From a virus (Duplodnaviria; Heunggongvirae; Uroviricota; Caudoviricetes): a stretch of 48,145 nucleotides of DNA. Of this stretch, positions 39,241 through 40,226 are shown piece after piece. The translations under genes and the position numbers were made by a program. The stretch lies in IMG/VR virus record IMGVR_UViG_2526164669_000027, one strand, 5' to 3'. The notes beneath the pieces are model-generated. The model made no database searches. It saw only the letters and a program-made list of their open reading frames with translations, and was not told the origin of the DNA. The stretch's first letter is position 1, and each line of letters opens with the position of its first letter.

Positions 39241-39507
39241 GGCAGTGAATTCCGGGCAAAGTTGTGCGACGACAATGATGCTGTCGCGTTTGCCTTGTTC
39301 GCCTTCGAAAATATATGCGTTTGTGAATTTGTTTTGGCTAAATGATTGTTCGTTCTCAACTTTTTGCATTGCAGGAAGTTGAATCACCCCGCGTTTTGCC
39401 AGACGCTCTATTGATATTCTGACATTGCCGTGTTGACTTCCAACCAGCTCTGCGATTTCAACGCTGGTCATGGATACTTTGTCGTTAAAAATTGCGGTGT
39501 TCATCAT
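39241..39507 (-). pseudogene. Rha-family antirepressor, N-terminal fragment (Rha domain), terminated by the IS end
   Basis: ..MTSVEIAELVGSQHGNVRISIERLAKRGVIQLP.. typical Rha domain; stop codon is supplied by the IS terminal TGA. Confidence 0.75.
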
Positions 39508-39821
39508 TCAATCTCCTCAGGATGTTTCTCAAACCAGGCGTCAAGGGCGCGCTCGCTGGCCTCTCCTTCTTCAGGAGAAAGCTGCTCAATACTTATAAAA
39601 CGGATGGATAAAACCGAAGGATTGGCGTTACGTATTGCCATCGCACCATTCACAGCTGCGGAACAGGGGCATTTGGCCTTTCCGATAATTGTCTCGGTAT
39701 AAGTGCGGGCGTACTCTGAAACCACGTACGTTCTTCTGTACCACTGTTCGACCGGAATTTGTCCAACAGGATCTGAAGGGTTGACTAATTTTTGAGTGCT
39801 GCTAATGTTAAGCATGATCAA
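39504..39821 (-). CDS. hypothetical protein (105 aa)
   Basis: ATGA overlap with the rha start. Confidence 0.45.
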   Translation of the reverse strand: MIMLNISSTQKLVNPSDPVGQIPVEQWYRRTYVVSEYARTYTETIIGKAKCPCSAAVNGAMAIRNANPSVLSIRFISIEQLSPEEGEASERALDAWFEKHPEEIE

Positions 39822-39890
39822 TGTCCTTTAGTCAGATGATTGAGGCCTTTTCCAGTCTGGTGATTAATGCCCTCCGGTTGGCGGTCAGGA

Positions 39891-40211
39891 TCAGTGATTA
39901 ATCGGGCGTTTATCATGGAACAGCTCCTTGAAGGTTGATTCCAAAGGTAAGTCAGGACAGGCCGGGCTGGCCCACCTTAATCCGGCCCGGCTTTTTCTTT
40001 TCCTTTCGCTCAGTAACATTTGTCTGACCAAGTGCCCATTGCCGCGCACGAAACAAGCAATCATTAAACATCGCTCCTTTGCGGCTGGCCTGCGAGCTAC
40101 GGCGGTAGTAATCCAGTCCCCGGCATGCCCCCCCCTGGCAACAATTTCAGGGAAGCCCTCCGCCACCAGCTTTTCCGTTATGTGTTTGCAGATAAATTCT
40201 TCTGGAGTCAT
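39891..40211 (-). CDS. hypothetical protein (about 106 aa); strand assignment uncertain
   Basis: ATG at 40211 with GAGG upstream; a comparable ORF exists on the opposite strand (39928-40242). Confidence 0.25.
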   Translation of the reverse strand: MTPEEFICKHITEKLVAEGFPEIVARGGHAGDWITTAVARRPAAKERCLMIACFVRGNGHLVRQMLLSERKRKSRAGLRWASPACPDLPLESTFKELFHDKRPINH

Positions 40212-40226
40212 GGTTAGCCTCTTCAA

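What the first reader, a model, noticed from the sequence alone, without database searches (positions are those of the whole stretch)
39504..40226. Two ORF candidates of atypical composition between the cro-like gene and rha, with competing ORFs on both strands
The minus-strand ORFs (39504-39821, 39891-40211) and an overlapping plus-strand ORF (39928-40242) are all plausible by length, and the region includes a GC-rich tract (CCCCGGCATGCCCCCCCCTGGCAAC). The real coding strand, or whether the region is non-coding RNA or regulatory, cannot be decided from sequence alone.
Basis: seen in the sequence. Interest (0 to 1): 0.3.

Follow-up and report, generated by a model that had tools for sequence, protein, structure and literature searches.

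The report
Frame-switching poly-G tract in prophage gene
The puzzling "competing ORFs" come from one conserved prophage early gene broken in this copy by a run of eight G's that is one base too short. The same run varies in length, and so in reading frame, across hundreds of related prophages, like a phase-variation switch.

Summary
Both real genes are on the minus strand. ORF1 (39504-39815, 103 aa) is a narrowly distributed E. coli prophage gene. "ORF2" (106 aa) is not a true protein. It is an out-of-frame copy of a conserved ~86-aa phage protein (phrog_4439, function unknown). Its N-part (40211-40136) and C-part (40127-39952) are joined at a homopolymer, G8 on the minus strand (C8 at 40128-40135). 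G9 alleles of the same prophage encode the intact protein. In an unbiased subset of 132 loci from Escherichia, Salmonella, Klebsiella and other genera, the tract is 6-14 G. The C-part is in frame in only 30% (39/49/44 over the three frames). Both halves still stay open and show purifying selection. Thirteen of 19 otherwise identical gene backbones occur with more than one tract length. The best reading is a hypermutable, phase-variable (contingency-type) tract, with this window in an OFF phase. Fixed -1 ribosomal frameshifting is rejected. The plus-strand ORF is spurious, and the region matches no Rfam family. The gene's last codons also encode a covarying intrinsic-terminator hairpin, strongest on the plus strand. 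The protein's function and the switching rate remain untested.

The parts
39504..39815 (-). ORF1, 103 aa (ATG 39815, stop 39504-39506). A real but narrowly distributed prophage gene of unknown function, with start/stop overlap with rha (ATGA).
   Evidence: PGAP calls it in EC11, RMDEC465 and STEC307. It has the best synonymous fraction (0.49) and no stops among the six frames. Only 8 clusters at 88% identity or more were found, all E. coli. There is one remote homologue, P0082, at 39% identity over residues 23-101. No Pfam, PHROG, NCBIfam or PADLOC hit.
39818..39916 (-). Candidate 32-aa small ORF (MINARLITDPDRQPEGINHQTGKGLNHLTKGH). AAGGAG lies 7 nt upstream, and its stop abuts the ORF1 start.
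   Evidence: Open in all three relatives, with 8 synonymous against 6 non-synonymous codon differences. Called by gene finders on 467 contigs (P0084). STEC307 has GTG instead of ATG. The evidence is modest.
39952..40211 (-). True extent of the ORF2 gene (phrog_4439 family, ~86 aa when in frame). In this window it is split over two frames at the G8 tract, so it is in an OFF phase.
   Evidence: Translations of relatives. The conceptual fusion equals P0085, an 86-aa protein found on 40 contigs. P0001 is 99% identical and is encoded with G9 in the same prophage type, with 5-6 SNPs per 500 nt in three of the four loci compared; the fourth diverges downstream of the gene. The phrog_4439 match is full-length, E=4e-27.
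40136..40211 (-). N-terminal part (MTPEEFICKHITEKLVAEGFPEIVA...), in the ATG frame.
   Evidence: Conserved in all relatives. Synonymous fraction 0.56 and no stops. No stops in 121 distinct genes.
40128..40135 (.). Homopolymer: C8 on the plus strand, G8 on the coding strand. It is the site of the frame change; G9, G6 or G12 would be in frame.
   Evidence: For this allele, family tract lengths seen in DNA are G8, G9, G13 and G14. Lengths G6, G10, G11 and G12 are inferred from 85-, 38-, 107- and 87-aa database proteins.
39952..40127 (-). C-terminal part (..ACRGLDYYRRSSQASRKGAMFNDCLFRARQWALGQTNVTERKEKKKPGRIKVGQPGLS*), in the -1 frame relative to the ATG. Stop TGA at 39952-39954.
   Evidence: Synonymous fraction 0.65 and no stops. 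Variable columns by codon position are 3/4/18. There is no start codon in this frame between the upstream TGA and the conserved DYY motif (read directly).
39891..39951 (-). Wrong-frame read-through tail of the annotated 106-aa 'hypothetical protein'. It is an artefact of the OFF phase.
   Evidence: The frame-0 continuation ends at different places in relatives: 63 aa in A36, 84 aa in A34, and 39 aa in STEC307 (G13; STEC306/308 with G14 read on to 108 aa). Synonymous fraction is 0.10.
39959..40001 (+). Intrinsic-terminator-like hairpin (12-bp stem 39959-39970 / 39982-39993) with a U-tract (39992-40001) on the plus strand, antisense to ORF2. It is encoded by the KKKPG...QPGL codons.
   Evidence: The plus-strand fold is -26.8 kcal/mol, z -2.74, with 0 of 200 shuffles as good. 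The minus strand gives z -0.92. In relatives, 7 of 13 pairs show compensatory double changes. The stem is kept even where the amino acids differ.
39928..40242 (+). Plus-strand 104-aa ORF: spurious, the antisense shadow of ORF2.
   Evidence: Variable sites fall on its codon position 1. Indels in the tract break it in relatives. No family hit.

Best explanation
Shown: the region carries two minus-strand early-operon genes. ORF1 is an ordinary orphan gene. ORF2 is a member of the conserved phage family phrog_4439 (~86 aa, helical with a basic tail). Its N- and C-parts are joined through a poly-G tract. In this window the tract is G8, one base short, so translation from the ATG runs into the wrong frame and yields the annotated 106-aa product. 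Across the family the tract is kept (6-14 G), but its length and the resulting frame vary freely, even between otherwise identical alleles. Both halves remain intact coding sequence.

Inferred: the tract is a hypermutable simple-sequence repeat. It changes length by slipped-strand mispairing during replication and switches the protein ON (in frame) and OFF, as a contingency locus does. This window is an OFF variant. Different OFF phases also move the point where ribosomes stop relative to the terminator hairpin at the gene's end, which could alter expression of the downstream rha and replication genes.

The protein's own function is not known. From its fixed position after cro/cII and before antirepressor-like or replication genes, I guess it is an early regulator. 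That guess is weak.
For: Frame anatomy in five E. coli relatives. Codon-position test. 71 protein homologues, among them ~50 in-frame 84-97-aa forms and more than 10 out-of-frame clusters.

The same prophage type with G9 encodes the intact protein; 5-6 SNPs per 500 nt in three of four loci. In the protein database, 85-, 86- and 87-aa in-frame forms and 106-, 38-, 107- and 108-aa out-of-frame forms exist for this allele. The 106-aa product identical to the window's is on 245 contigs, and the exact predicted fusion is on 40 contigs.

Family survey: 142 loci gave 121 distinct genes. Of these, 115 have a G run of 6 or more at the junction. All 5 genes whose longest junction G run is 4 or less (no tract or an interrupted one) are in frame; L031, with a G5 run in an interrupted tract, is not. 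In the unbiased subset of 132 loci with a run of 6 or more, frames are 39/49/44, chi-square p=0.57. The result is similar in isolates, metagenomes and phage records.

Thirteen of 19 whole-gene backbones seen at least twice have more than one tract length. The clonal isolates STEC306/307/308 carry G14/G13/G14. There are 0 stops in N frames and 3 in C frames among 121 genes. Gly codons elsewhere in the gene are only 35% GGG. Precedents for phage poly-G and contingency loci: bioRxiv 10.1101/2025.10.21.683753.
Against: No read-level or experimental measurement of switching exists, so reversibility is inferred from population data. In-frame copies are not enriched (30%), so there is no direct sign that ON is ever selected. 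Some of the length variation could be homopolymer sequencing error. The protein's function is unknown: there are no significant structural or family annotations. Low-level frameshifting on G runs, as in HSV thymidine kinase (PMC5009743), could make OFF alleles leaky. A hot spot in a nearly dispensable gene would produce similar static data.
Confidence: 0.6

Rival explanations
1. Mutational hot spot without adaptive role. The gene is nearly dispensable, the G run merely breaks it often, and copies are on their way to decay or are repaired by chance.
For: In-frame copies are not enriched: 39 of 132. Sequenced phages from virions or induction can carry out-of-frame copies, for example Kpn_R1 with G7 and Omnitron with G8. 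So the gene is not essential for propagation.
Against: The tract is retained in 115 of 121 distinct genes across genera, although GGG is a minority Gly codon elsewhere in the gene. Both halves stay open (0 and 3 stops in 121 genes). They also show wobble-dominated substitution. A second-site +1 in a neighbouring G5 run restores the frame in P0005. A dispensable gene should accumulate stops and lose the tract.
Confidence: 0.17
2. Recoding. The full-length protein is made regardless of tract length, by ribosomal frameshifting on G GGG GGG or by RNA-polymerase slippage on the G run. The DNA phase would then be irrelevant.
For: In the window the heptamer G GGG GGG lies in the correct phase for -1 tandem slippage. 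A uniform frame distribution with intact ORFs is what a frame-blind expression mechanism would predict. Low-level frameshifting on a G run rescues HSV TK (PMC5009743).
Against: The frame relation is not fixed: both -1 and +1 are needed in different alleles. No stable structure follows the tract (z +0.24, +0.86, +1.54). G_GG.G_GG.U gave the lowest -1 frameshifting measured in E. coli, 0.018% (PMC4066793). Transcriptional insertions in E. coli were found only in A/T runs (PMC5574713). All 5 genes whose longest junction G run is 4 or less (no tract or an interrupted one) are in frame.
Confidence: 0.15
3. Sequencing or assembly artefact. The true tract is in frame and G8 is a homopolymer miscall in this window.
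For: Homopolymers are error-prone on several platforms. STEC306/307/308 differ by a single G.
Against: Six independent records carry G8 on an otherwise identical gene sequence: EC11, C5, three IMG isolates and the window; two further near-identical IMG records, L009 and L021, also have G8. The identical 106-aa product is on 245 contigs from mostly short-read assemblies. G8 and G9 alleles differ by linked SNPs, for example position 27 C/T, so length is inherited within lineages. Length differences of 2-5 bases are common.
Confidence: 0.04
4. The plus strand is coding (39928-40242), or the region is a non-coding RNA or regulatory element rather than protein-coding.
For: The ORF has a plausible length. 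A strong plus-strand terminator hairpin lies at 39959-40001.
Against: Substitutions fall on codon position 1 of the plus ORF. Synonymous fraction is 0.07-0.09 in two of the three plus-strand frames; the third reaches 0.52 but has 17 stops. Tract indels break it. No Rfam match at E of 1 or less. No sigma-70-like plus-strand promoter lies within 500 nt upstream of the hairpin.
Confidence: 0.03

Closest known systems
Intragenic poly-G/C contingency loci of Neisseria, Haemophilus, Campylobacter and Helicobacter, and the rmpA poly-G of hypervirulent Klebsiella (bioRxiv 10.1101/2025.09.12.675794)
   Same: A homopolymer of 6-14 G lies inside a coding sequence. Its length varies between near-identical strains. 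The frame shifts ON and OFF while the ORF stays otherwise intact.
   Different: The tract sits in a temperate-phage early (cro-side) operon gene rather than a bacterial surface or restriction-modification gene. The hosts are mismatch-repair-proficient Enterobacterales. Switching rate and phenotype have not been measured.
Phage-borne hypermutable tracts: the Fletchervirus (Campylobacter phage) poly-G tracts in receptor-binding genes, and the T2/T4 'contingency loci' (Gomez, Barrick and Waters, bioRxiv 10.1101/2025.10.21.683753)
   Same: A phage gene carries a slippage-prone mononucleotide repeat that produces mixed ON/OFF progeny.
   Different: Those cases are lytic phages and concern host-range or anti-defence genes. 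That preprint does not mention temperate phages. Here the tract is conserved across a whole protein family of prophages and lies in the lysis/lysogeny-control region.
Programmed -1 ribosomal frameshifting in phage genes, for example the lambda G/GT tail-assembly chaperone on G GGA AAG
   Same: Two conserved coding segments lie in different frames, joined at a slippery run. In this window the run reads G GGG GGG in the right phase.
   Different: The frame relation is not conserved (in frame, +1 or -1 in roughly equal numbers). There is no stimulatory structure. The motif is among the least shifty in E. coli. Membership is rejected.
The lambda cII-oop arrangement, where the antisense oop RNA terminator is embedded in the last codons of cII (my own knowledge of lambda)
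   Same: An A-run plus GC-rich stem in the C-terminal codons (KKKPG...QPGL here, NKKRPAA in lambda cII) reads as an intrinsic terminator on the opposite strand. The gene lies in the cro-side early operon upstream of the replication genes.
   Different: No antisense promoter was found. The protein is unrelated to CII. In Klebsiella phages it lies downstream of an annotated cII. The hairpin is absent from some branches of the family.
HSV thymidine kinase G-run 'saviour' indels with low-level compensatory frameshifting (review PMC5009743)
   Same: A G-run indel inactivates a viral gene while a trace of full-length product may still be made.
   Different: That case is a eukaryotic virus under drug selection, not a family-wide conserved tract.

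Membership tests
Homopolymer-mediated phase-variable (contingency) locus | A mononucleotide repeat within the coding sequence long enough to be slippage-prone (about 7 or more G/C) | tested here: met
   C8/G8 at 40128-40135 is the only G/C run of 7 or more in the window. 115 of 121 distinct family genes have a run of 6 or more at the same site, with a mode of 8-9 and a maximum of 14.
Homopolymer-mediated phase-variable (contingency) locus | Repeat-length polymorphism between closely related copies that changes the reading frame | tested here: met
   Thirteen of 19 identical whole-gene backbones have more than one length. This allele is seen as G8, G9, G13 and G14 in DNA. G6, G10, G11 and G12 are inferred from protein lengths.
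Homopolymer-mediated phase-variable (contingency) locus | The ORF is otherwise intact in OFF variants, so the switch is reversible in principle | tested here: met
   There are 0 stops in N frames and 3 in C frames among 121 genes, although about 70% of unbiased loci with a tract of 6 or more G's are out of frame.
Homopolymer-mediated phase-variable (contingency) locus | High-frequency reversible switching measured within a clonal population | not testable with these tools
   No read data or cultures are available. The only hint is G13 against G14 in the near-identical isolates STEC306/307/308.
Homopolymer-mediated phase-variable (contingency) locus | A phenotype that differs between ON and OFF | not testable with these tools
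   The protein's function is unknown.
Programmed -1 ribosomal frameshift site | An X XXY YYZ slippery heptamer in the zero frame | tested here: met
   GCC AGG GGG GGG CAT gives G GGG GGG in phase.
Programmed -1 ribosomal frameshift site | The same frame relation is conserved in homologues | tested here: not met
   Frames are 39 in frame, 49 at +1 and 44 at -1 among 132 loci.
Programmed -1 ribosomal frameshift site | A downstream stimulatory structure | tested here: not met
   Folds of the 76-78 nt after the tract give z-scores of +0.24, +0.86 and +1.54.
Transcriptional-slippage recoding | A run on which E. coli RNA polymerase is known to slip (A/T runs of about 9 or more) | tested here: not met
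   The run is G/C. Transcriptome-wide insertions occurred only in A/T runs (PMC5574713). Runs longer than 9 G were not covered there, so this is not a full exclusion.
phrog_4439 protein family | A full-length profile match of the protein | tested here: met
   The in-frame allele P0001 matches positions 1-74 of 74 at E=4e-27. The 106-aa window product as such is not a member beyond its first ~28 residues.
Rho-independent (intrinsic) terminator | A GC-rich stem-loop directly followed by a U-tract, conserved with covariation | tested here: met
   The plus strand has a 12-bp stem followed by UUUUUCUUUU, at -26.8 kcal/mol and z -2.74. Seven of 13 pairs show compensatory changes. The loop of 11 nt is larger than typical, and termination itself has not been tested.
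oop-like antisense RNA | An antisense promoter a short distance upstream of the antisense terminator | tested here: not met
   No plus-strand sigma-70-like site with 9 or more of 12 matches lies between 39300 and 39960. There is no Rfam match.

The most novel reading that the evidence does not exclude
A whole family of temperate enterobacterial phages keeps a hypermutable poly-G tract inside an early gene next to the lysis/lysogeny switch, as a bet-hedging device. Each burst or lysogen lineage would throw off ON, 'short-OFF' and 'long-OFF' variants. These differ in the protein made and in where ribosomes stop relative to a terminator hairpin at the gene's end. That difference would tune expression of the downstream antirepressor-like and replication genes. 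The further recurrent variable poly-G tracts seen in related Klebsiella- and Enterobacter-type prophages would make this a multi-locus 'phasotype' system in temperate phages.
Probability: 0.25. Interest if true: 0.8.

Novelty: new member of a known kind. Interest (0 to 1): 0.55.

Why it matters
First, it corrects annotation. The RefSeq 106-aa 'hypothetical protein' (WP_000186943.1) and many sibling entries of 38-118 aa are wrong-frame products of one ~86-aa gene. Second, it points to simple-sequence phase variation in the early control region of lambdoid-type prophages of E. coli, Salmonella and Klebsiella. Phage contingency loci have so far been described only for lytic phages (T2/T4, Campylobacter Fletchervirus), and none of the eight literature searches run here turned up this case. 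If switching has a phenotype, clonal lysogens would carry heritable but reversible heterogeneity in prophage behaviour, and this is directly testable with locked-ON and locked-OFF alleles. Third, it gives a clean example of a protein tail whose sequence is dictated by a terminator hairpin, as in lambda cII/oop.

Tried and rejected
- Pfam, NCBIfam and PADLOC on all ORFs of the region: nothing for ORF1, ORF2, the 32-aa, 42-aa or 75-aa ORFs.
- Structure: the AlphaFold2 model of the in-frame protein has pLDDT 77 and pTM 0.61, with helices and a disordered tail. Foldseek against PDB gave no hit at E of 0.001 or better, only weak sigma-region-2-like matches (E>0.4). Against BFVD it found only unnamed homologues. 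No function could be assigned.
- Rfam on 39200-41000 at E of 1 or less: no match.
- oop-like antisense RNA: the terminator is present, but no promoter was found. It is kept only as a side observation.
- Fixed -1 programmed frameshift: this was my first idea after seeing G8 in three diverged E. coli lineages. It was rejected once the wider family showed all three frames and no stimulatory structure.
- Independent initiation of the C-part: rejected. The window's ATG (40071) is ATT in RMDEC465 and A36 and lies after the conserved DYYRR..SQASRKG motif.
- The metagenome scan with a degenerate 20-mer mostly returned chance matches.
- The species-representative genome scan gave only 6 loci.
- The exhaustive phmmer search for ORF1 found one true remote homologue plus a repetitive false positive, P0080.
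Full report
**Setting.** The window is an E. coli lambdoid prophage. Around the finding, the early "rightward-type" operon runs on the minus strand.
- A CI-like repressor lies at 40895/40970-41626 (+), with HTH_3 and Peptidase_S24 domains.
- Divergent from it is a cro-like gene at 40649-40858 (-) (phrog_4749; called 'transcriptional regulator' by PGAP).
- Then come a 42-aa ORF and an oppositely oriented 75-aa gene with its own promoter (40239-40266).
- The two ORFs of the finding follow, then rha. The rha N-part is at 39238-39507 (Phage_pRha).
- rha is cut by an IS3-family element, with orfA at 38860-39186 and orfB at 37973-38860. In E. coli EC11 the same region is 99.9% identical and rha is intact.

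**Observation check.** The string spans 40118-40142 and contains C8 at 40128-40135, the only G/C run of 7 or more in the 48 kb. Base composition is not atypical: GC is 0.46-0.535.

**ORF1 (39504-39815, minus).**
- PGAP annotates it as a 103-aa hypothetical protein in three genomes.
- Among the six frames it has the highest synonymous fraction (0.49) and no stops.
- It is a narrow orphan. The word-indexed search found 8 clusters, all E. coli and all at 88% identity or more.
- The exhaustive search found one true remote homologue, P0082 at 39% identity.
- I take it as a real gene of unknown function.
- Just upstream, a 32-aa ORF (39818-39916) has a good Shine-Dalgarno sequence and stays open in relatives. 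The evidence for it is modest.

**ORF2 is two frames of one gene.** I aligned the window with four diverged E. coli relatives (RMDEC465, STEC307, A36, A34) and translated all frames.
- The first ~27 residues (MTPEEFICKHITEKLVAEGFPEIVARGG) are conserved in the ATG frame.
- The conserved continuation (..LDYYRRSSQASRKGAMFDDCYFRARQWALGQT..ERK..KKKPG..) lies in the -1 frame in the window, EC11, C5, A36 and A34, all of which have G8.
- It lies in the ATG frame in RMDEC465, which has GGGAGGGGGG and an 84-aa PGAP protein.
- It lies in the +1 frame in STEC307, which has G13 and is not annotated.
- In the true C-part frame, 65% of codon differences are synonymous, there are no stops, and variable columns fall 3/4/18 on codon positions 1/2/3.
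- The window's 106-aa frame scores 0.10. Of the three plus-strand frames, two score 0.07-0.09 and the third scores 0.52 but carries 17 stops. Variable sites fall on codon position 1 of the 104-aa plus ORF.
It settles the strand as minus and shows that the 106-aa ORF is a wrong-frame read-through.

**The intact protein exists.**
- A search with the conceptual fusion found 71 proteins. About 50 are in-frame forms of 84-97 aa from E. coli, Salmonella, Klebsiella, Enterobacter, Citrobacter and Kosakonia. Many E. coli out-of-frame products were also found.
- The family is phrog_4439, of unknown function.
- P0001 is 99% identical to the fusion. It is encoded in the same prophage context with G9, and in three of four loci compared it differs from the window at 5-6 of 500 positions.
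- The exact predicted fusion (P0085) is on 40 contigs. The window's exact 106-aa product (P0098) is on 245 contigs.
- For this allele the database also holds in-frame proteins of 85 aa and 87 aa, which imply G6 and G12. Out-of-frame proteins of 38 aa and 107 aa imply G10 and G11. G14 was seen directly in STEC306/308.
- G8 and G9 copies differ by linked SNPs, so the length is inherited within lineages and is not a random miscall.

**Family-wide behaviour of the tract.** I used two DNA patterns in the C-part, which are independent of gene calling, and HMMs of the two halves on six-frame translations.
- This gave 142 loci with both halves and 121 distinct genes.
- 115 of the 121 have a G run of 6 or more at the junction, up to G14. 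All 5 genes whose longest junction G run is 4 or less are in frame; L031, with a G5 run in an interrupted tract, is not.
- In the unbiased subset of 132 loci with a run of 6 or more, the C-part is in frame in 39, at +1 in 49 and at -1 in 44. The chi-square p is 0.57.
- The fractions in frame are similar in isolate genomes (25%), metagenome-derived contigs (35%) and deposited phage genomes (2 of 6).
- Of 19 gene backbones that are identical outside the tract and seen at least twice, 13 occur with more than one length. Examples are 6/8/11, 7/8/9 and 13/14.
- The N frames hold no stop and the C frames only 3 among 121 genes.
- Gly codons elsewhere in the gene are only 35% GGG.
- Distant homologues in Proteus lack the tract.
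- So the tract itself is conserved, its length is not, and the coding capacity on both sides is maintained.

**Mechanism.** A fixed programmed -1 frameshift was my first idea, because G GGG GGG is in phase in the window. It fails on three counts.
- The frame relation is not conserved.
- No stable structure follows the tract (z +0.24 to +1.54).
- G_GG.G_GG.U gave the lowest frameshifting measured in E. coli, 0.018% (PMC4066793).

Transcriptional slippage is unlikely on present knowledge. Insertions in the E. coli transcriptome occurred only in A/T runs (PMC5574713). Runs of 10-14 G were not covered there, so it is not excluded.

The pattern matches a hypermutable simple-sequence repeat changing length at the DNA level, which is a contingency-type ON/OFF switch. 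This window is OFF. The inference that the switch is adaptive rests on the tract and both ORF halves being retained over a wide divergence. It is not shown. Low-level leaky frameshifting remains possible, as in the HSV thymidine kinase G run (PMC5009743).

**What the phases do to translation.**
- In +1 alleles the ATG frame stops early. The median is 112 nt before the true stop, giving products of 29-50 aa.
- In -1 alleles such as the window it usually runs past the true stop. The median is +52 nt, through the hairpin and, in the window, over the start of the 32-aa ORF.
- Whether this alters downstream expression is speculation.

**Hairpin.**
- The last codons (KKKPGRIKVGQPGLS*) encode an A-run, a GC-rich stem-loop and a moderately T-rich tail.
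- On the plus strand this folds as a 12-bp stem followed by UUUUUCUUUU, at -26.8 kcal/mol and z -2.74. On the minus strand it is weaker (z -0.92).
- In the KKKPG..PGLF branch of the family the stem covaries. Variants include GCCGGGC/GCCCGGC, GCCCGG/CCGGGC, GCCGGGT/ACCCGGC, AAGTCGGG/CCCGACTT and ACCGGG/CCCGGT. It also persists where the amino acids differ (KAGK..DRLL with AGCCGG/CCGGCT).
- RNAalifold finds compensatory double changes in 7 of 13 pairs.
- It resembles the oop terminator embedded in lambda cII (my own knowledge of lambda). However, I found no plus-strand promoter and no Rfam family.
- Its role is open. It could be an antisense or bidirectional terminator, or an mRNA 3' structure.

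**Function of the protein.** It is unknown.
- The AlphaFold2 model (pLDDT 77) has three long helices and one short helix, followed by a disordered basic tail.
- Foldseek gives no significant annotated match.
- In annotated phages the gene sits after cro or cII and before KilA-N, Rha or DUF4222 genes or the replication genes. This holds in Klebsiella, Serratia and the phage deposited as 'Elizabethkingia' EKP1. That position suggests an early accessory regulator, but this is a guess.

**Comparison with what is known.**
- Intragenic poly-G phase variation is classical in Neisseria and Campylobacter and has been reported for Klebsiella rmpA.
- Phage-borne cases are described for Campylobacter Fletchervirus and, under the name contingency loci, for T2/T4 (bioRxiv 10.1101/2025.10.21.683753). 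That preprint does not mention temperate phages.
- None of my eight literature searches found this family.
- I therefore file it as a new member of a known kind.

**Verdict.**
- The anatomy is very secure: minus-strand coding, ORF2 as an OFF-phase copy of a phrog_4439 gene, and a tract of variable length.
- The adaptive phase-variation reading is moderately secure, at about 0.6.
- The biological role is unknown.

Noticed in passing
window 37973-39186 (IS), 39238-39507 and about 37484-37879 (rha halves): An IS3-family element (orfA with HTH_Tnp_1, orfB with rve) interrupts the rha gene. The otherwise 99.9% identical prophage of E. coli EC11 has an intact 235-aa Rha.
   Followed up: partly
window 40229-40527: A plus-strand 75-aa gene (40300-40527) sits inside the minus-strand early operon and has its own promoter (TTAACC-16-TATACT, 40239-40266). 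An inverted repeat CCAC..GTGG (40243-40260) lies between the hexamers. About 84 nt of promoter and 5' end are conserved in phage Rac-SA53 ('rac10') and in Klebsiella phages. The 50-nt block also stays conserved upstream of ORF2 where the flanks differ.
   Followed up: partly
related loci, e.g. L055:661, L190:739, L062:5131, L101:5785 and 7017, L038:7067 and 7595, L189:158 and 684, L285:11721 and 12449: Related Klebsiella-, Enterobacter- and Salmonella-type prophage contigs carry other recurrent poly-G tracts with conserved flanks and variable length. One example is ...CTCGTCCCGTT[G9-14]CTGATACATCGC. There are 35 G/C runs of 8 or more outside the gene in 1.53 Mb. These may be further phase-variable phage genes.
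   Followed up: no
P0082 (88 aa, remote homologue of ORF1): It starts with MTPSEFIHKH, like the ORF2 family's MTPEEFICKHI, and then continues as an ORF1-like protein. This suggests mosaic exchange at a shared start module.
   Followed up: no
family loci; in the window, frame-0 stop at 39891-39893 against the true stop at 39952-39954: The two OFF phases end translation in different places. One ends about 112 nt before the true stop. The other ends about 52 nt after it, running through the terminator hairpin and into the next ORF's start.
   Followed up: partly
window 40514-40642 (-) and 40300-40527 (+): A 42-aa minus-strand ORF, annotated by PGAP, overlaps the 3' end of the convergent 75-aa gene by 14 nt. 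Neither has any family match.
   Followed up: no
E. coli STEC306/307/308 (L023, L003, L022): Three near-identical isolates from one study differ at this tract (G14, G13, G14). PGAP leaves the gene unannotated in all three.
   Followed up: partly
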